Assembly (NCBI GenBank): GCA_046047315.1
Contig: JBJOID010000062.1
Coordinates: 5,896 to 69,895 of the forward strand
Length of the DNA stretch: 64,000 bases
Reading direction: 5' to 3'
Source of the DNA: Candidatus Hydrogenedentota bacterium
Lineage (GTDB): Bacteria > Hydrogenedentota > Hydrogenedentia > Hydrogenedentales > JAEUWI01
Shown: piece by piece, positions 2,300 to 52,957 of the stretch
How positions within the stretch are numbered: position 1 is the first letter of the stretch
Layout of the letters: every line of letters starts with the position of its first letter
Translations under genes and position numbers: made by a program
Notes under the pieces: model-generated
Databases searched by the model: none
What the model saw: the letters and a program-made list of their open reading frames with translations, nothing else
What the model was told of the DNA's origin: nothing

Positions 2300-2485
2300 T
2301 TCAATGCGTTGAGCCACGTGACCGTACTCCGGCAACTTGCCCGGCACGCGCCCGCACGGCGCGGCGGCAACTTGCCACATTCCCTCGCGTACGATAGCAT
2401 AGCTGCCCAGCCCAATGGAACATCCTGTCTCGCAATGGGTTAGCGTCAAGTGTCGATTTTATTTTTGCTAAAAGTGAAAAATTCT

Positions 2486-3139
2486 ATGACTACTTCTTCA
2501 CACAGCTCCTTCCCCGACGCCCTGCCGGACTGCCTGAGAAGCGATGGCATTGCTTTGGAGGCGGCAACGTGCGAGCAGCTGTTGAAGTTCGCCGCTTTGG
2601 TGCGGCATTGGAATGCCTATGCCTCCCTCATGTCGGACCGGGACATTCACTTGATCGAGTCCCTGCACATTCCGGACGCCTTGAGCCTGGCCGGTACGCT
2701 TCTGGCCGCGATACGGCAGGGTCGGCAGTGGATTGATCTGGGAAGCGGCGGCGGCTTCCCCGCGTTGCCGGTGCGGATTCTGGCGGGAGAGCTGCCACTC
2801 ACGCTGGTGGAGCGCTCGGAGAAGAAGTCGGGCGTGCTCCAGCAGCAACTTACCAGCCTCCACCTCGATGGGGTCTCGCTGCGGGTGGGCAGTTTCCCGC
2901 AGGTGATTCCTCATCCGGAGGGACCCGTGGTCGTAACGGCCCGCGCCATCGAGAAGCCCGTCGTGGTGCATCAGGCGCTCGCCCAGTGGATGCGCCCGCA
3001 CGATGTGTTCCTCTGTCAGGCAGCCGCCCCCGAGCCGGTGTTTCAGTCGCCCATGTTCCACGTGGAACACATCACGGACTGCTGGACCGAGACCGGGCTA
3101 CGCCGGGGAAGCCTCTACCGCATCGAACGCCTCGCCTGA
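2486..3139 (+). CDS. rsmG: 16S rRNA (guanine527-N7)-methyltransferase RsmG/GidB
   Basis: SAM-binding motif DLGSGGGFPALP and overall GidB-like sequence. The ATG at 2486 gives MTTSSH; the upstream part of the ORF-track frame is a likely alternative-start artefact. Confidence 0.8.
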   Translation: MTTSSHSSFPDALPDCLRSDGIALEAATCEQLLKFAALVRHWNAYASLMSDRDIHLIESLHIPDALSLAGTLLAAIRQGRQWIDLGSGGGFPALPVRILAGELPLTLVERSEKKSGVLQQQLTSLHLDGVSLRVGSFPQVIPHPEGPVVVTARAIEKPVVVHQALAQWMRPHDVFLCQAAAPEPVFQSPMFHVEHITDCWTETGLRRGSLYRIERLA

Positions 3140-3156
3140 GGAGAGCCTACGAAAAA

Positions 3157-3188
3157 GGCGCCCGGACCAAAATCCGGGCGCCTTGACG
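3157..3188 (-). terminator. Rho-independent terminator downstream of the DUF1559 gene (possibly bidirectional for rsmG)
   Basis: Perfect 10-bp GC stem GGCGCCCGGA / TCCGGGCGCC with a 6-nt loop at 3157..3182. On the minus strand it is followed by TTTTTCG. Confidence 0.5.
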
Positions 3189-3224
3189 CAAGCGGTCGGG
3201 TGTTCCACGTGGAACACCGGGGGG

Positions 3225-4175
3225 TTACTCGAACAAGCTGTTCAATGCCGCGTGGCTTACCGTCGCGGGGAAGGTCTCGCCCAACCCCACGTATTCGACA
3301 TGTCCATCGAGGTACAGGGCATTGCACCCGCCCGGCACGTGGTTGAAGCCAACGCCGCCGCCGATATTGGTGCTGATCTTGTCCCAAGCCACAGGCAAGG
3401 TGGATTGCGCCCGCGCGGCCGCGCCGGGATTGTTGATGTCGGTAATCACGAAACGCTCGATGCCCTCGCGCAGGCGATAGAGGTTCGCGCTCTGGCCATT
3501 CCCGTCCGTGGTGTAGTCGAGGGTCGTTGCATCGCGCAGTGCCGCGAGGTCAATGTCCTCATCCAGAATGAAGTCATCCGCAGGATCCTTGTTCAGCGCC
3601 GCGTCACCCACCACCACGGAAAGTGCAATGAACTGGTTTGGCGCCTCGATAGGGGTCGGGGTCGGGAAAGGCACCACCGAACGGGGATGGGACTCGTCGA
3701 CCCGGTCGAGCGCGAAGCCCACGTAGTTGTAACTCTCATCCCCCTCGGTCACCACTCCCACGTAGGCGCAAGTGTCAGTCCCATCATCCGCTACCACCAG
3801 CAGATCATTCTCCTGTCCCACATCAGCGTCGCTTGGGCAGACCAGCACGTTCAGGTCGGTCAGGTATTCCGGATACAGCGCCACCATGTCGGCCATGAAG
3901 ACGCCGTTGTCGTGAAAGCTGTCGGGGTCGCAGCCGGTCGCATTCGCCGCCAGCCCGAAGGCATGGTCACCGTCCACCCGGGGATACCGCTCGCCCTTCG
4001 ACTCGGTGGCGTACATCTTGAGCACAAGCCCCAGCTGCTTCAGGTTGTTCTGGCACGAAGCCCTGCGAGCCGCTTCCCGGGCACGCGCGAGCGCGGGCAA
4101 CAGGATGGCAGCCAGAATGCCGATGATGGCAATCACGACAAGCAGTTCAATCAGGGTGAATCCATTCCGCTTCAT
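3225..4175 (-). CDS. DUF1559 (H-X9-DG) protein with prepilin-type N-terminal cleavage/methylation domain
   Basis: N-terminus [29 protein letters not shown] is a prepilin peptidase signal plus hydrophobic helix. C-terminal YLDGHVEYV motif. This family is highly expanded in Planctomycetes and Verrucomicrobia. Confidence 0.8.
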
Positions 4176-28699: not shown

Positions 28700-29767
28700 T
28701 TACTCCTGAGTGAGCTTGAAGGGATCGAACAGCGCGGCCGTCTGGCCTTCCTGCATCTTCTTCAAGTCTTCCTCGGGGTCGTTGTAGACCATTTCCTCAA
28801 GCGGCTTCTGCTCGGTGCCCATGTTCACGGCCAGCAGGGGATTTGCCGCCGTGAGCGCGTTGGCGCCGTCGAGGGTCATGCCGCTCTGCCAGGCATAGAG
28901 ACGCCGCAGCTTGGGCAACGCCTTCAGCGTTTCCACGCTGGCATCGGTCACCTGCGTGCCAAAGAAGTTCAGGTATTCCAGGTTCGACAGACCCGCCAGC
29001 TGCGCCACCCCCGCGTCGGTGATGCCCGTGCGCTCGAGGTGAATGCTCGTCAGGCGCGGCATGCCCGCCAGCGCGGCGAGCCCGGCGTCCGTCACCTTAG
29101 AACCGGCCAGGTTCAGCCAGGTGATGTTCTGCGCCACCGGGGCCAGCGCGGCCAGGTGCGCATCGGTCGCGCCTTCCGGCACAAACTTCAGGTCGGCCTG
29201 AAGCAGGGGAGAAGTCTGGTCGAGCGGCGCAAGGCGCACGCCCGACTGTGTGGCGGCGGCAATGGCCTCCGGCGCGGCGGGGGCCAGGCCCTCCGCCAGC
29301 TTCTTCAGCGCGTCCTCCGCGTAGAGCGGCGCGGCCGCCTTGCCGACACTGAGCGACGCGAACATGATCTGCGGCTCTTTGTACTCTTCCGCCCAGCCTT
29401 CAAAGGATGCGCCCTCGGCAATCCATTGCGTGATCGCTTCGATATCCTTCTTCGGCAGCGGGCCGCCCTTGGGGGGCATCAAGTCCTCGTCCCCGTCGGG
29501 CAGGGAGATACGCTGCACAATCAGGCTTTCCTCCGGCTTCGCCGCCACCAGCGCGGGACCGCTCGAACCGCCCGCGCCAATGTGCTCCGGGGCGTCCAGC
29601 CGCAAGCCGGCCTTGGGATTCTCCGCCCCGTGGCATCCCACGCACTTCGCTTCCAGAATTGTGCGAATGCGGGACGGCTTCACCGGTTCCGCCTGCGCAG
29701 CCATGCTGCCCGCCAACACGCATCCCACCATGGCCGCCTGCCATGCCGCGTTCCATTGCACCCTCAT
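28700..29767 (-). CDS. planctomycete cytochrome C (PSCyt1) domain + leucine-rich-repeat protein
   Basis: Signal peptide; CVGCHGAENPKAGLRLD haem-binding-like CxxCH; C-terminal LRRs (WLNLAGSKVTDAGLAALAGMPRLTSIHLERTGITDAGV...). Confidence 0.7.
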   Translation of the reverse strand: MRVQWNAAWQAAMVGCVLAGSMAAQAEPVKPSRIRTILEAKCVGCHGAENPKAGLRLDAPEHIGAGGSSGPALVAAKPEESLIVQRISLPDGDEDLMPPKGGPLPKKDIEAITQWIAEGASFEGWAEEYKEPQIMFASLSVGKAAAPLYAEDALKKLAEGLAPAAPEAIAAATQSGVRLAPLDQTSPLLQADLKFVPEGATDAHLAALAPVAQNITWLNLAGSKVTDAGLAALAGMPRLTSIHLERTGITDAGVAQLAGLSNLEYLNFFGTQVTDASVETLKALPKLRRLYAWQSGMTLDGANALTAANPLLAVNMGTEQKPLEEMVYNDPEEDLKKMQEGQTAALFDPFKLTQE

Positions 29768-47901: not shown

Positions 47902-48971
47902 ATGCCCTTTTCCAGCAGGTGCTGCAAGCCCTCAGGATCAGAGCTCCGCTTGAAGGCCATGTCGGTGGTGATGACGCCGCGCCGCATCAGGCGATAGAGC
48001 GACTGGTTCATGGTCATCATGCCTTCGCCCTTGCCGATTTCAATCATCGAGGGAATCTGCTCCAGCTTTTCCGAGCGAATCAGCGCGCGGATGGCGGGAT
48101 TGGGCAGCATGATTTCCATGGCCATCACGCGGCCCATGCCGTCGGCGCGCGGCACCAGTTGCTGCACCACCACCGCCTCAAGCACGAAGGACAACTGCGT
48201 GCGCACCTGATCCTGCTGGCCGCTGGGGAACACGTCGATGATGCGGTTCATCGTCTGGAGCGCATCGTTGGTGTGCAGCGTGGCGAAGGCCAAGTGGCCC
48301 GTTTCCGCCACGGTGATGGCCGCCTGGATGGTTTCGATGTCGCGCATTTCGCCGACCAGGATTACGTCGGGGTCTTGGCGCAGCACGCGCTTGAGCGCCT
48401 CGGAGAAACTGCGCGTGTCGGAATGCACCTCGCGCTGGTTGATAACCGACTGGTTATGGTTGTGCAGGTATTCGATCGGGTCCTCGATCGTGATGATGTG
48501 CACGTTGCGCTCGGAATTGATCTTGTCGATGATCGACGCGAGCGTGGTTGACTTACCGGAGCCCGTGGGCCCGCAAATCAATACGAGGCCGAGCGGGCGG
48601 TAGGCCAGGTCGGACACCGCGCGCGGAAGGCCCAGCTGTTCCGCCGACAAGATCTCGAAGGGAATGGCGCGGAACGCGCCCACCACGCTGCCGCGATCGC
48701 GGTACACGTTCAGACGGAAGCGGCTCAGTCCCTCGATGCCGAAGGAGAGATCGCATTCCTTCGTCGCTTCGAACTCGGACACTTGGTCCTCGTTCATCAC
48801 CGTGTAGATGATTTCCTGCGTCTGGTCCGCCATCAGGCGCGGATAGCCCTCAAGCGGTTGCAGCCCCCCATGCAGGCGGATCATGGGCGGCGCCCCCACC
48901 ACGATGTGCAGGTCGCTCGCGCCCTCGCGAATCATCTTCGTCAACAGCTCGCGAATGCTTGGCGTGGCCAT
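47898..48971 (-). CDS. pilT: twitching motility ATPase PilT
   Basis: MIREGASDLHI..., Walker A ICGPTGSGKSTTLASII, the PilT C-terminal AIRALIRSEK...GMMTMNQSLYRLMRRGVIT; 357 aa. Confidence 0.85.
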   Translation of the reverse strand: MATPSIRELLTKMIREGASDLHIVVGAPPMIRLHGGLQPLEGYPRLMADQTQEIIYTVMNEDQVSEFEATKECDLSFGIEGLSRFRLNVYRDRGSVVGAFRAIPFEILSAEQLGLPRAVSDLAYRPLGLVLICGPTGSGKSTTLASIIDKINSERNVHIITIEDPIEYLHNHNQSVINQREVHSDTRSFSEALKRVLRQDPDVILVGEMRDIETIQAAITVAETGHLAFATLHTNDALQTMNRIIDVFPSGQQDQVRTQLSFVLEAVVVQQLVPRADGMGRVMAMEIMLPNPAIRALIRSEKLEQIPSMIEIGKGEGMMTMNQSLYRLMRRGVITTDMAFKRSSDPEGLQHLLEKGM

Positions 48972-49012: not shown

Positions 49013-50737
49013 CTAATCCGCAGGCGTATGCTCCAACACTTGCTCGATGGTGCTCAGGCCCTTGGCGGCCTTGGCCAGCGAGTTTTGGCGGAGCGACTTC
49101 ATGCCGCAGGCGATGGCGGCCTGTTTCAGTTCGTAGCCCGAGGCGCGGCGCAGCACAAGCGGTTGGATGTCCGGCCAGTTCAGCAGCACCTCGACCACGG
49201 CCACGCGGCCGCGATAGCCGCTGTCCTTGCACTTGCTGCATCCGCGTCCACGCACCCACTTGATCTCGTCGAGGTAGTCGAAGCCTCGGTACTGGATGCG
49301 GTCGAGCACCTCGTCCGGCACGTGGATGCGCTCCTTGCACTCGGCGCACACGCGCTTCATCAGGCGTTGCGCGGCGGCCAGCGCCACGGAGGATTGCACC
49401 AGGAAGGGCTCGATGCCCATGTCGATCAAACGGGGGAACACGCCCGCCGCGTCATTGGTGTGCAGCGTGCTCAACACGAGGTGGCCGGTGAGCGCCGCCT
49501 TCACGGCCACGTCCGCAGTTTCGCCGTCGCGGATTTCGCCCACCATCACCACATCCGGGTCTTGGCGCAGAATTTGCCGCAGGGCGTCGGCGAAGGTGAA
49601 GCCGATGCGCGAGTTCACCTGCACCTGGTTCACCCCGAAGAGGTCGTATTCCACCGGGTCTTCCACGGTCACCACGTTGGTCTCGATGTCGCACAGCTTG
49701 CTGAGCGCACTGTAGAGCGTGGTGGTCTTGCCGCTGCCGGTAGGGCCGGTCAGCAGGATCATGCCGTGGGGCAGCTGCAGCGCCTCGCGGAATGCGTTCA
49801 TGGGCTGCGGCTCGAAGCCGAGGCTGTCGAGGTCGAGCGTGAGGTTGCCGCGGTCGAGCACGCGCAGCACCACCTTCTCGCCAAACTTCACGGGCAGGAA
49901 GCCCACGCGGAAGTCGATCTCGCGGTCGTTGTAGCGAATGCGGAAGCGGCCGTCCTGCGGAAGGCGGTGCTCGTCGATGCGGCATCCGGCGAGAATCTTG
50001 AGGCGCGCGATGAGGTTGTGCTGGAGGCTCTTGGGCGGTCCCTTGGCCTCCTCGAGCGTGCCGTCCACGCGGTACCGGATGCGCATGATTTTCTCATACG
50101 GCTCGATATGGATGTCGCTCGCCCCGCGCTCAAGCCCGTTGAAGAGAATCAGGCGCACGAGCTTCTTGACCGGCTCGTCCTCCGCGCCCGCTTCGATCTT
50201 CGACACGTCCTCAATCTCGGACTGGTCTTTAAGCTCCTGCAGCGCGTCGGCCTCGCTGCCGCCGCCCACCAGCGACTTGTACAGGCTCTCCGCCTTGTCC
50301 CCGCCGTAGTGGCGGTTGATCGCGTCGCGCAGTTCCGAGGCCACCGCCACCACCGGTTCGATGTCGTAGCTGGTGAGCATGCGCAGGTCGTCGAGCGCCA
50401 TGATGTTCAGCGGGTCGGCCATCGCCAGTGTCAGCACGTCGCCGGTCACGGATACCGGCAGCATCTGGTACTGGCGCGCCAGCGTCTCCGGCACCTCGGC
50501 CAGCACCTCCTTGGGGATGGAGTAATGCGCCACGCGGATGTGCGGTATGCCCAGCTGCTCGCTCAGCGTGACGACCAGGTCTTCCTCGGAGAGGTATCCC
50601 TTTTCGACCAGCAGCGTCGGCAGGCTGTTGCCCGTGGCGCGTTGCAGGTTGATGCACTCGGTCAGCTGTTCCTGCGTGACCAGCTGCTGCTCCAGCAGCA
50701 TGTCGGGCAGGCGCTTCTTCGCAAACTTCGTTGCCAT
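49013..50737 (-). CDS. pilB: type IV pilus assembly ATPase PilB (GspE family)
   Basis: N-terminal MshEN-like RLPDMLLEQQLVTQEQLTECINLQ; Walker [19 protein letters not shown]; tetracysteine CAECK...CSKCKDSGYRG. Start ATG at 50737 (AGGAG SD). The ORF-track N-terminal 18 aa are rejected. Confidence 0.85.
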   Translation of the reverse strand: MATKFAKKRLPDMLLEQQLVTQEQLTECINLQRATGNSLPTLLVEKGYLSEEDLVVTLSEQLGIPHIRVAHYSIPKEVLAEVPETLARQYQMLPVSVTGDVLTLAMADPLNIMALDDLRMLTSYDIEPVVAVASELRDAINRHYGGDKAESLYKSLVGGGSEADALQELKDQSEIEDVSKIEAGAEDEPVKKLVRLILFNGLERGASDIHIEPYEKIMRIRYRVDGTLEEAKGPPKSLQHNLIARLKILAGCRIDEHRLPQDGRFRIRYNDREIDFRVGFLPVKFGEKVVLRVLDRGNLTLDLDSLGFEPQPMNAFREALQLPHGMILLTGPTGSGKTTTLYSALSKLCDIETNVVTVEDPVEYDLFGVNQVQVNSRIGFTFADALRQILRQDPDVVMVGEIRDGETADVAVKAALTGHLVLSTLHTNDAAGVFPRLIDMGIEPFLVQSSVALAAAQRLMKRVCAECKERIHVPDEVLDRIQYRGFDYLDEIKWVRGRGCSKCKDSGYRGRVAVVEVLLNWPDIQPLVLRRASGYELKQAAIACGMKSLRQNSLAKAAKGLSTIEQVLEHTPAD

Positions 50738-50803
50738 GGGCAGACTCCTAGCGCGGCGCGCGCGCCTTGCGCCGCCACTCAGCGCAAGCACTACTTCTCG
50801 TCA

Positions 50804-52957
50804 TCAGGCGGCCTGCTCGTCACCCAGATGGCTGAGGATTTCGCTTGCGGATTCGCAGGAGATTTCCTGGCCCACCAGGTCGGAATAGGCGATGATCTTT
50901 CTCAACGAACCGGTCATCTTCCGGATGTCTTTGGGCACCCGCATCGCCACCAGGTTCAGTATCTCGTCGGGCAGCCCGGCCTTTTGCGTCTGGGCCGCCT
51001 GCCGCAATATCTCGACGCGGGCCTCCCATTCGGGAGCCTTCAATTCGGCCACGATGCCGCTGGCGAACCGGGACACGAGGCGCTTCTCAAGCAGGCCCAG
51101 CCGGTCCGGCGCCTTGTCGGAAGCGATGATAATCTGTCTCCCGGCACGGTGCAACGTGTTGAAAATATGGAAGAATTCTTCCTGCGCCTCCACCCGTCCC
51201 CCGAGAAACTGGATGTCGTCGAGGATGAGCACTTCCCAACAGCAGTAGTTTTCCCTGAAGGCGTCCATCGCCTTGGCCGAGGCCGCCTCGCTCAAGCGGC
51301 GCGAGAAGTGGCTGGCGCTCACGTAGCCCACGCGCAAGGATGGATTCTTCTCGTTGATGGCGTTGCCAATCGCGCTGATAAGGTGCGTCTTGCCCAGGCC
51401 GACGCTGCCAAAGAGGAAGAAGGGGTTGTATTCCCCGCCCGGTTTGGCCGCCACAGCCTGCGCCAGCTTGAATGTAAATGCGTTGGCCTTGCCCGCGATG
51501 AAGTTCGAGAAGTTGAAAGTCTCGGTCGGCTGGTCGGTTTCCAGCGCGTCGTAGACCTGCTGGTCCGCCTCGCGCTGCGGGTCGTCGTCGCCCTGCTTCG
51601 GGATGCGCCCGTGAAAGGGCATTACCGAGCTGTGCGCCCCGCGCTTCACCAGACGGCTGCCGTCCTGGTTCTCGTGCGTGCTCACCTGCTCGGCCAGCAG
51701 GGCAGCCTGCTGCACGGACTGCAGCGCGCTCTCCGCGATCTGTTCCAGCTTCTGGCTGGTTTCCGCCTGGGCCTCGCGCAGGGCGCTTACCACCTGCGCG
51801 ATGCTGTCGCCATCGGAAGGCTTGGCGCCCATGGCGCGAATCTGCACCAGCAGCGCGGCCATCGCCTCCTGCATCGCCCCGCCCACACTGTCGCGAATCA
51901 GCGCGGCGAGGGCCTCGGGCGGCAGGGCAGCGTCCCCGCCAGCCGCCGGGGACGGCGCAGACACCGTCGCGCCCCGCAGGCTTTGTGAAAGTTTTTCTGC
52001 CATCTCGGCCTGGGAAGAGGCAATCAGTTGGGCAATGCTTTCGAGGCTGGGTTGCGCGGCCTGCTCGGCCCGCATCTTCACCATCAGCGCCGCCAGCGCC
52101 TCTTGAAAAGCGCCGCCCACGCTGTCGTGCAATACATTCGCCAACGCGCCCATGTCTACGCCGCCACCCGCCGCCGGGACCGCCGCCACGGGTTGGCTTG
52201 CGGGCAGCGATTCCCTCAGCGCCTCCTTGATGGCCTGCGCGTACACCTCGGGAGCAACGCCGCCGCCACCCCCATTTCCCATGTTCTTGCCGATATCCTG
52301 GAAGCCTTCACGCACCGCGTTCAGCAGGGCGGCCTGCGTGGATTGCAAGGCCTGCGCAATCGCCGCCGCCTCCGCACCCGACGACTGTGCGGGAGTAGCC
52401 GGCGCCGCTGGCGCGGAGTGCGTCGGGGCCGGCGCGGCCGTGGCGGGCTGGGGCCTGGGGGGTTCTGGCTTGGGGGCGGGCGCCGCGGCCCGCAGGCCCA
52501 GGCTTTCCGCGGTAAGGGAATGCTGGCCCCCGTTCTGCTGCTTGCTCGCCTGCTCGCCAAAGACCTTCTCGGAAACGATGGCGTAATGTTCCCAGTTGCA
52601 GAGAATCGGCTTGATGCGCAGCTCCGGGCAGGATTCCCGGATAGCTTGCAGCGCTTCGAGATCGAGTGGATCCACCATCGCCACCGTGAGGATGCGGCCC
52701 AGCTTGTCAATCGGCAGCACGTGGTGCTGGCGGCAAACTTCCGCCGGAATCAACTGCAGCACATCGGGCCCGATGTTGTAGTCCAACAGGCTCAAGTGAG
52801 GTATCTTGCACTGCTTCACCAGCGCGCTCGCCACCGCCTCCTGAGACACGAACCCCTGGCGCACGAGGATGCGCCCGAGAAAGCCGCCCTCCGCCGCCTG
52901 CATGGCGAGTGCCGCGTCGAGCTGCTCCTGGCTGATCAGCCCTTCTTCCAACAGCAA
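50804..52957 (-). CDS. novel fusion: GspE-N/MshEN domain + repeat-containing Ala/Pro/Gln-rich linker + DnaA-type AAA+ domain (DnaA domain III) with no DNA-binding domain IV
   Basis: N-terminus (K)TLGQLLLEEGLISQEQLDAALAMQ...GRILVRQGFVSQEAV...LIPAEVCRQHHVLPIDKLGRILTVAMVDPLDLEALQAI is a T2SSE_N/MshEN fold with the 24-residue motif. Linker aa ~140-470 carries tandem repeats of about 78 aa (ALANVLHDSVGGAFQEALAALMVKMRAEQ... / ALAALIRDSVGGAMQEAMAALLVQIRAMG...). The C-terminus aligns to E. coli DnaA domain III: TFNFSNFIAGKANAFTFKLAQAVAAKPGGEYNPFFLFGSVGLGKTHLISAIGN (Walker A), LILDDIQFLGGRVEAQEEFFHIFNTL (Walker B), IIIASDKAP (sensor 1), LEKRLVSRFASGIVAEL (Arg finger), IRKMTGSLRKIIAYSDL (sensor 2). The protein ends at SHLGDEQAA, so domain IV is absent. 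Only 66 nt separate it from pilB. The ORF-track start is a TTG; the true start may lie further upstream. Confidence 0.7.
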   Translation of the reverse strand: MLLEEGLISQEQLDAALAMQAAEGGFLGRILVRQGFVSQEAVASALVKQCKIPHLSLLDYNIGPDVLQLIPAEVCRQHHVLPIDKLGRILTVAMVDPLDLEALQAIRESCPELRIKPILCNWEHYAIVSEKVFGEQASKQQNGGQHSLTAESLGLRAAAPAPKPEPPRPQPATAAPAPTHSAPAAPATPAQSSGAEAAAIAQALQSTQAALLNAVREGFQDIGKNMGNGGGGGVAPEVYAQAIKEALRESLPASQPVAAVPAAGGGVDMGALANVLHDSVGGAFQEALAALMVKMRAEQAAQPSLESIAQLIASSQAEMAEKLSQSLRGATVSAPSPAAGGDAALPPEALAALIRDSVGGAMQEAMAALLVQIRAMGAKPSDGDSIAQVVSALREAQAETSQKLEQIAESALQSVQQAALLAEQVSTHENQDGSRLVKRGAHSSVMPFHGRIPKQGDDDPQREADQQVYDALETDQPTETFNFSNFIAGKANAFTFKLAQAVAAKPGGEYNPFFLFGSVGLGKTHLISAIGNAINEKNPSLRVGYVSASHFSRRLSEAASAKAMDAFRENYCCWEVLILDDIQFLGGRVEAQEEFFHIFNTLHRAGRQIIIASDKAPDRLGLLEKRLVSRFASGIVAELKAPEWEARVEILRQAAQTQKAGLPDEILNLVAMRVPKDIRKMTGSLRKIIAYSDLVGQEISCESASEILSHLGDEQAA

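What the first reader, a model, noticed from the sequence alone, without database searches (positions are those of the whole stretch)
3054..3218. Twin perfect palindromes (core GTTCCACGTGGAAC) 147 bp apart straddling the rsmG stop and a terminator
TGTTCCACGTGGAACA (3054..3069, 16-bp perfect palindrome, inside the last codons of rsmG) and GGTGTTCCACGTGGAACACC (3199..3218, 20-bp perfect palindrome, intergenic) share the same 16-bp core around CACGTG. They bracket the rsmG stop and the strong hairpin terminator at 3157..3188. Identical long palindromes this close together are unlikely by chance, even in GC-rich DNA. They suggest a pair of binding sites for a dimeric regulator. The 147-bp spacing would allow looping, or they could be the ends of a small inserted cassette. 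A related half-site (GCCACGTGAC) occurs at about 2310..2319 in the cimA/rsmG divergent region.
Basis: seen in the sequence. Interest (0 to 1): 0.5.

Follow-up and report, generated by a model that had tools for sequence, protein, structure and literature searches.

The report
Twin parS centromere sites at rsmG
The two identical palindromes are almost certainly parS sites, the well-known bacterial "centromere" sequences bound by the chromosome-partitioning protein ParB; they lie near the replication origin of an uncultured Hydrogenedentota bacterium, so this is an ordinary element in a little-studied phylum.

Summary
TGTTCCACGTGGAACA occurs exactly twice in the 64 kb window (3054-3069 and 3201-3216), where about 7e-6 copies are expected by chance.

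The 16-mer is identical to the perfect-palindrome parS2/parS3 of Pseudomonas aeruginosa. It fits the universal parS consensus TGTTNCACGTGAAACA.

The window comes from a Candidatus Hydrogenedentota MAG. In more than 20 independent lineages of this clade, with RsmG only 35-83% identical, the same pair sits at the 3' end of rsmG.

In the in-gene copy, the synonymous positions are frozen: CAC, GTG and GAA in 19 of 19 loci (P about 1e-17). The intergenic copy has an invariant 14-bp core and flanks with no conservation. Selection therefore acts on the DNA.

The sites lie about 13 kb from a DnaA-box-rich, AT-rich gap upstream of dnaN, which is the probable oriC.

The 147-bp spacing is not conserved. 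The ancestral spacing is about 100 bp, and this lineage gained a roughly 50-bp terminator hairpin.

The cassette idea and the "half-site" at 2310 are rejected.

Open point: no parA or parB gene lies near rsmG or oriC in this phylum, and I could not show that the phylum encodes ParB.

Verdict: a new member of a known kind, of low to moderate interest.

The parts
3054..3069 (.). parS-1: a perfect 16-bp palindrome TGTTCCACGTGGAACA inside the 3' end of rsmG, read as codons (A)TG TTC CAC GTG GAA CA(C) = M-F-H-V-E-H
   Evidence: Searches show the sequence. It is identical to P. aeruginosa parS2/parS3. Synonymous sites are frozen in 19 of 19 orthologs.
3199..3218 (.). parS-2: a 20-bp perfect palindrome whose central 16-mer (3201-3216) equals parS-1. 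It is intergenic, between the stop of the convergent gene (3225) and that gene's terminator hairpin.
   Evidence: Searches show the sequence. In the downstream copy the 14-bp core is invariant in 16 of 16 lineages and the flanks carry no information.
2486..3139 (+). rsmG (gidB), the 16S rRNA m7G527 methyltransferase gene. Its C-terminal tail hosts parS-1.
   Evidence: Pfam GidB, E = 9e-20. It is 100% identical to P0001 from a Candidatus Hydrogenedentota MAG. See alignment A1.
3155..3184 (-). A G+C-rich hairpin with a 12-13 bp stem, followed by a U-run on the minus strand. It is the probable intrinsic terminator of the DUF1559 gene and possibly acts in both directions. It is a roughly 50-bp lineage-specific insertion between the two parS sites.
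   Evidence: Folding gives dG -50 kcal/mol and z = -7.2 for the minus strand of 3140-3225. The block is absent from the 57%-identity relative L085. The simple terminator scan did not call it.
3225..4175 (-). A convergent gene for a prepilin-type N-terminal methylation / DUF1559 protein. Its 3' UTR would contain parS-2.
   Evidence: Pfam N_methyl plus SBP_bac_10/DUF1559. NCBIfam prepilin domain and H-X9-DG motif.
15921..16608 (.). Candidate oriC: an AT-rich gap containing DnaA boxes between an MshEN-T2SSE ATPase gene and dnaN, about 12.7-13.5 kb from the parS pair.
   Evidence: GC is 0.49 against 0.64 for the window, with 3 DnaA boxes where 0.08 are expected. The same synteny holds in L003, L013, L082 and L020, with 2-7 boxes and up to 6 perfect TTATCCACA.
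16609..17715 (+). dnaN (DNA polymerase III beta clamp), an origin-region marker
   Evidence: All three Pfam DNA_pol3_beta domains match. dnaN lies 3-13.5 kb from rsmG in six lineages, and about 7 kb away in L166.

Best explanation
The two palindromes are chromosomal parS sites, the centromere-like loading sites of the ParABS partition system, lying about 13 kb from the replication origin of a Candidatus Hydrogenedentota bacterium.

Inferred mechanism, taken from established ParB biology (reviewed in PMC7022226): a ParB dimer recognises each 16-bp palindrome through its helix-turn-helix domains. With CTP bound, the dimer closes into a clamp at parS and slides onto flanking DNA. This builds a partition complex over the origin region, which ParA moves apart after replication and which loads SMC condensin.

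Shown here: (1) sequence identity with experimentally validated parS; (2) DNA-level purifying selection on exactly the parS footprint in both copies across a whole phylum-level clade; (3) linkage to dnaN and a DnaA-box cluster.

Inferred only: that a ParB protein binds the sites. No parB gene was located.

The in-gene copy forces RsmG to carry the peptide F-H-V-E. That peptide is therefore a by-product of the DNA site, not a catalytic motif.
For: (1) TGTTCCACGTGGAACA equals P. aeruginosa parS2/parS3, the highest-affinity ParB sites, which are sufficient for segregation when near oriC (PMC4368675). It is also the P. putida consensus, is one base from the M. xanthus consensus, and fits the general consensus TGTTNCACGTGAAACA (PMC7022226 Table 1).

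(2) There are only 2 copies in 64 kb, against 7e-6 expected.

(3) A pair of sites at the rsmG 3' end occurs in more than 20 distinct Hydrogenedentota-type loci. This includes genomes where the first copy overlaps the stop codon or lies just after it (L166, L167).

(4) Codon test: His = CAC, Val = GTG and Glu = GAA in 19 of 19 loci. The codon straddling the palindrome edge varies (CAT, CAC, CGT, CGC, CCT, CAA, giving H, R, P or Q). P is about 1e-17 to 1e-19 given each gene's own codon usage. GAA is used for only 1 of the 11 other Glu codons in the window's rsmG.

(5) The intergenic copy has an invariant 14-bp core, partly conserved positions 1 and 16, and no information in the flanks.

(6) None of 52 outgroup RsmG proteins has an FHV[EK] motif, so the motif is not an RsmG requirement.

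(7) Origin proximity: the T2SSE-gap-dnaN synteny and DnaA-box enrichment are conserved.

(8) In outgroup phyla, the canonical TGTTTCACGTGAAACA sits in the same neighbourhood (the starts of mnmG and rsmG, next to parAB).
Against: No ParA or ParB gene was found in the window (about 46 ORFs scanned). None was found in 467 kb of window plus 34 Hydrogenedentota-type loci with profile HMMs, nor from about -23 to +47 kb around the candidate oriC. I could not show that the phylum encodes ParB at all (no literature).

GC skew does not change sign at the candidate oriC, so origin proximity rests on dnaN, DnaA boxes and AT-richness only.

No binding data exist.
Confidence: 0.9

Rival explanations
1. The sites are operators for a dimeric transcription factor other than ParB, which binds both sites, possibly with looping, and controls rsmG and/or the convergent pilin-like gene as part of a regulon.
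For: The sites are perfect palindromes of operator size, occur as a pair, and show a sharply delimited conservation footprint. No parB gene was found nearby. In P. aeruginosa, ParB itself represses promoters next to parS3/parS4 (title and abstract of PMC5521831), so a regulatory side-effect is conceivable.
Against: The sequence is base-for-base the validated ParB site. The sites lie at the 3' ends of two convergent genes, not at promoters. No further copy occurs in 64 kb, even with 3 mismatches, so the window gives no sign of a regulon. The location tracks the origin region across lineages.
Confidence: 0.04
2. The in-gene palindrome is a by-product of a functionally required RsmG peptide (FHVEH), and the downstream copy is a chance or recent duplicate.
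For: F191, H192, V193 and E194 are at least 90% conserved in the RsmG alignment.
Against: Synonymous third positions are invariant in 19 of 19 loci, against background usage of 47-64% (P about 1e-17). The residue after E changes (H, R, P, Q) exactly as parS position 16 varies. The non-coding copy is equally invariant in 16 of 16 lineages. None of 52 outgroup RsmG proteins has the motif. In L166 the site overlaps the stop codon, and in L167 it lies outside the gene.
Confidence: 0.01
3. The palindromes are the terminal repeats of a small mobile or inserted cassette (MITE-like), or they are RNA hairpins or terminators.
For: The sites are identical repeats 147 bp apart. Each can fold into an 8-bp hairpin as RNA.
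Against: The segment between them is the conserved RsmG C-terminal tail and is present in all relatives. There are only two copies in 64 kb. The pair occupies the same locus across a phylum-level clade. The core shows invariance rather than compensatory covariation, which argues against selection for RNA structure. Rfam gives no hit. No U-run follows either palindrome.
Confidence: 0.02

Closest known systems
Pseudomonas aeruginosa / P. putida chromosomal parS (parS2/parS3, TGTTCCACGTGGAACA)
   Same: The 16-bp sequence is identical. There are few copies, and they cluster within a few to about 15 kb of oriC. In P. aeruginosa, ParB binds the perfect palindromes with the highest affinity, and one origin-proximal site suffices for segregation (PMC4368675; PMC7022226 Table 1).
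   Different: In P. aeruginosa, parAB lies about 7 kb from oriC. Here no parAB is found from about -23 to +47 kb around the candidate origin. Here the sites form a fixed pair at the rsmG 3' end, conserved across a phylum-level clade.
The canonical mnmG(gidA)-rsmG(gidB)-parA-parB origin cluster with parS, as in the Alphaproteobacteria among the outgroup loci
   Same: parS sites are embedded in or next to rsmG, in the origin region. Rhodobacterales, Bartonella and Asaia loci carry TGTTTCACGTGAAACA at the starts of mnmG and rsmG, with parA-parB immediately downstream.
   Different: In Hydrogenedentota the sites are at the 3' end of rsmG, with arms of GGAAC type. rsmG is flanked by cimA and a convergent gene, and parAB is absent from the neighbourhood.
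Myxococcus xanthus parS (TGTTCCACGTGGAACG)
   Same: It has the same GGAAC-arm variant. Several Hydrogenedentota lineages use exactly this position-16 G variant in both copies (for example L013; consensus from PMC7022226).
   Different: M. xanthus has 22 sites. Only two are seen per origin-proximal locus here.

Membership tests
Chromosomal parS (ParABS centromere site) | A 16-bp palindrome matching TGTTNCACGTGAAACA, or identical to an experimentally validated parS | tested here: met
   Both copies are TGTTCCACGTGGAACA, identical to P. aeruginosa parS2/parS3 and the P. putida consensus.
Chromosomal parS (ParABS centromere site) | Few copies, clustered in the origin-proximal domain | tested here: met
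   There are two copies in 64 kb, with none more at up to 3 mismatches. They lie about 13 kb from dnaN and from a DnaA-box-rich, AT-rich gap that is conserved in relatives. Caveats: oriC is inferred, GC skew gives no support, and the rest of the genome was not available.
Chromosomal parS (ParABS centromere site) | Conserved as DNA (not as protein or RNA structure) at orthologous positions in related genomes | tested here: met
   More than 20 lineages carry the pair at the rsmG 3' end. Synonymous sites are frozen, P about 1e-17. The intergenic copy has an invariant core with uninformative flanks and no covariation.
Chromosomal parS (ParABS centromere site) | A cognate ParB (ParBc N-terminal CTPase domain plus HTH) encoded in the same genome | tested here: inconclusive
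   ParB is absent from the window and from 467 kb of related loci. The whole MAG could not be searched. A database search with a Chitinivibrionales ParB listed no Hydrogenedentota hit among the 120 shown.
Chromosomal parS (ParABS centromere site) | Specific ParB binding, CTP-dependent clamp loading, and a segregation defect on mutation | not testable with these tools
   This needs EMSA or BLI, ChIP-seq or genetics. The organism is uncultured.
Noc-binding site (NBS) | A palindrome of the type ATTTCCCGGGAAAT (consensus from my own knowledge) | tested here: not met
   The core here is CACGTG with GTTCC arms. This is the parS signature, not the NBS signature.
MITE / cassette terminal inverted repeats | Many dispersed copies, a variable presence at orthologous loci, and non-essential cargo between the repeats | tested here: not met
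   There are two copies only. They are present at the same locus clade-wide. The segment between them is the conserved RsmG C-terminal tail.
Intrinsic terminator / structured RNA | A stem kept through compensatory changes, a U-run after the stem, or a match to an Rfam family | tested here: not met
   This applies to the palindromes themselves: the sequence is invariant with no covariation, no U-run follows them, and Rfam gives no hit. The separate hairpin at 3155-3184 between them does look like a terminator.

The most novel reading that the evidence does not exclude
In Hydrogenedentota the chromosomal centromere is a fixed two-site module, typically about 100 bp apart, hard-wired into the 3' end of rsmG since the origin of the clade. 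It is read by a partition protein whose gene is unlinked from the origin, either far away or of a non-canonical type.

In the extreme version the phylum has no canonical ParB and another protein has taken over the parS sequence.

The persistence of a pair at about 95 bp even after relocation (L022) would then mean that the pair, not the single site, is the functional unit.
Probability: 0.08. Interest if true: 0.55.

Novelty: new member of a known kind. Interest (0 to 1): 0.25.

Why it matters
It gives an uncultured candidate phylum a centromere and, together with the DnaA-box gap upstream of dnaN, a probable origin. Both are useful for orienting and closing MAGs and for chromosome-organisation studies.

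It is also a clean example of a DNA-binding site imposing a near-invariant peptide (FHVEH) on a housekeeping enzyme. From a protein alignment alone, that peptide would be mistaken for a functional motif.

The consistent absence of parAB from the origin and rsmG neighbourhood departs from the textbook gidAB-parAB arrangement. It is worth a whole-genome check.

None of this changes what is known about how parS works.

Tried and rejected
(1) ParB search. The following found nothing in Hydrogenedentota-type sequence:
- tblastn with Roseobacter ParA/ParB.
- Profile HMMs built from 43-47 outgroup ParA/ParB sequences, run against 3,893 ORFs.
- Pfam and NCBIfam scans of about 46 window ORFs.
- Extension of the left flank through close relatives.
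- Look-ups on three genome-sized contigs.
A database search with a Chitinivibrionales ParB returned only hits from the query's own clade.

(3) Helical phasing of the spacing is uninformative. The values simply cluster near 100 bp, so every trial period looks non-uniform.

(4) The simple terminator scan missed the hairpin, because its rule absorbs part of the T-run into the stem. Folding shows the hairpin clearly.

(5) GC skew gives no origin signal.

(6) Rejected readings: the cassette-end, RNA-structure and coding-constraint explanations, and the 'half-site' at 2310.

(7) The Livny 2007 survey (PMC2168934) is not held in the library.

Full report
**Observation**

The sequence is as described. 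TGTTCCACGTGGAACA (3054-3069) is a perfect 16-bp palindrome. GGTGTTCCACGTGGAACACC (3199-3218) is a perfect 20-bp palindrome. Neither extends further, and they share 17 nt at a 147-bp offset. They are the only matches in the 64 kb, even when 3 mismatches to TGTTNCACGTGNAACA are allowed. At this base composition, 7e-6 exact copies are expected.

Copy 1 lies in the last 28 codons of rsmG and reads M-F-H-V-E-H (Pfam GidB). Copy 2 lies between the rsmG stop (3139) and the stop of a convergent prepilin/DUF1559 gene at 3225-4175(-). Between them is a very stable hairpin at 3155-3184. On the minus strand it is followed by a U-run, so it is most simply the terminator of the convergent gene. The rule-based scan missed it.

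The 'related half-site' at 2310-2319 is a bare CACGTG. That hexamer is not enriched in the window (15 observed, about 22 expected).

**Identity of the sequence**

The 16-mer is base-for-base the perfect-palindrome parS2/parS3 of Pseudomonas aeruginosa. ParB binds those sites with the highest affinity, and one such site near oriC is necessary and sufficient for proper segregation (PMC4368675). It is also the P. putida consensus, differs by one base from the Myxococcus xanthus consensus, and fits the general chromosomal consensus TGTTNCACGTGAAACA (PMC7022226 Table 1). Rfam has no match in the region.

**Source and context**

RsmG is 100% identical to a protein of a Candidatus Hydrogenedentota MAG.

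dnaN lies at 16609-17715. The 688-bp gap upstream of it, between an MshEN-T2SSE ATPase gene and dnaN, has these properties:
- It is AT-rich: GC 0.49 against 0.64 for the window.
- It holds 3 DnaA boxes where 0.08 are expected.
- The same gene order and gap recur in L003, L013, L020 and L082, with 2-7 boxes. L013 has six perfect TTATCCACA and L082 has four. L166 has the same gene order.

This gap is the probable oriC, 12.7-13.5 kb from the palindromes. In relatives, dnaN is 3-8 kb from rsmG. GC skew does not corroborate the origin.

**Conservation**

I aligned RsmG homologs and fetched orthologous loci from reference genomes, metagenomes and assemblies. More than 20 distinct lineages, with RsmG only 35-83% identical, carry a pair of these sites at the 3' end of rsmG.

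Usually one copy lies 78-144 bp before the stop codon and the other 2-63 bp after it. In L166 the first copy overlaps the stop codon, and in L167 both copies lie just downstream.

Spacing ranges from 83 to 161 bp, with a median of 101.5.

The window's 147 bp is explained by an alignment with its closest relatives. The 57%-identity relative L085 has the second site 12 bp after the stop. The window and its 83%-identity relatives carry an extra block of about 50 bp, which is exactly the terminator hairpin.

The intervening DNA is the conserved RsmG C-terminal tail, so it is not a cassette.

**DNA-level or protein-level constraint**

F-H-V-E is at least 90% conserved in the protein alignment, but the constraint is on the DNA, for these reasons:
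- In 19 of 19 loci, His is CAC, Val is GTG and Glu is GAA. Pooled background usage in the same genes is 64%, 47% and 47%, giving P about 1e-17 to 1e-19. The window's own rsmG uses GAA for only 1 of its 11 other Glu codons.
- The codon at the palindrome's edge varies freely (CAT, CAC, CGT, CGC, CCT, CAA, giving H, R, P or Q), tracking the known tolerance of parS position 16.
- The non-coding copy has an invariant 14-bp core GTTCCACGTGGAAC in 16 of 16 lineages, partial conservation at positions 1 and 16, and no information immediately outside.
- No compensatory changes occur, which argues against selection for RNA structure.
- None of 52 outgroup RsmG proteins has an FHV[EK] motif.

**Comparison with other phyla**

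In alphaproteobacterial outgroup loci, the canonical TGTTTCACGTGAAACA lies at the starts of mnmG and rsmG, with parA-parB immediately downstream. This is the textbook origin cluster.

In Hydrogenedentota the sites moved to, or arose at, the 3' end of rsmG, and parAB is not there. Profile HMMs built from 43-47 outgroup ParA/ParB proteins find nothing in 467 kb (3,893 ORFs) of window plus 34 related loci. The window together with L083 excludes parAB from about -23 to +47 kb around the candidate origin.

Whether the phylum encodes ParB elsewhere could not be tested. A database search with a ParB from a sparsely sampled lineage listed only that lineage's relatives. No paper links ParB with this phylum.

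**Mechanism**

Shown here: the sequence is a validated ParB site, it is under DNA-level purifying selection on exactly the parS footprint, and it is linked to the origin region.

Inferred from established ParB biology (PMC7022226): ParB dimers bind each site, close as CTP-dependent clamps, slide outward to form the partition complex, are moved by ParA, and load SMC.

The regulon, looping-distance and cassette readings are not supported.

**Verdict**

This is an ordinary, well-understood element (parS) that had not been described in this candidate phylum. It has a neat phylum-wide architecture and one open question, the location or existence of parAB. It is a new member of a known kind, with interest 0.25 and confidence 0.9 in the parS assignment.

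Noticed in passing
window 50804-52957 (-): A 717-aa protein that fuses an N-terminal MshEN / c-di-GMP-binding motif to a DnaA-type AAA+ domain but lacks DnaA's C-terminal DNA-binding domain (TIGR00362: 288 bits, below the 344 cutoff, matching profile positions 54-340 of 437). It sits beside a PilB-like gene (49013-50791), a PilT-like gene (47898-48971), a PilS-like kinase gene (46303-47901) and a sigma-54 response-regulator gene (44882-46399). This is an unusual architecture.
   Followed up: partly
window 15921-16608: Probable oriC: an AT-rich gap enriched in DnaA boxes between an MshEN-T2SSE ATPase gene and dnaN, with the same synteny in L003, L013, L020, L082 and L166. No canonical dnaA lies next to dnaN, and GC skew shows no sign change there.
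   Followed up: yes
L014 6661-6703 (protein P0081): The in-gene parS is duplicated in tandem 27 bp apart, giving RsmG the peptide MFHVEHPAPMVHVEH. The second copy has one mismatch.
   Followed up: partly
L022 8385-8495: A low-GC relative (GC 0.39) has no site in rsmG. Instead it has two TGTTTCACATGAAACA sites 95 bp apart in an intergenic region 1.5 kb downstream. Both carry the same core G-to-A change, so the paired arrangement and its spacing persist after relocation.
   Followed up: partly
L013, L016, L021 (both copies); L020 and L023 at position 10013: Within a genome, the two copies tend to share the same variant at parS position 16 (G/G, C/C, C/C). This hints at gene conversion or co-evolution with the binding protein. 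In L020 and L023 the only parS-like site found lies at the 5' end of the rsmG match (position 10013); none was found at the 3' end.
   Followed up: no
L166 10634-10649: In the 3.55-Mb relative, the rsmG stop codon TGA lies inside the first parS (CAA TGT TCC ACG TGA). The site therefore defines the end of the protein.
   Followed up: no
window 3225-4175 (-) and 28700-29767 (-): Protein families typical of Planctomycetes occur in this Hydrogenedentota genome: a DUF1559 / prepilin protein with an H-X9-DG C-terminal motif, and a PSCyt1 'Planctomycete cytochrome C' domain protein.
   Followed up: no
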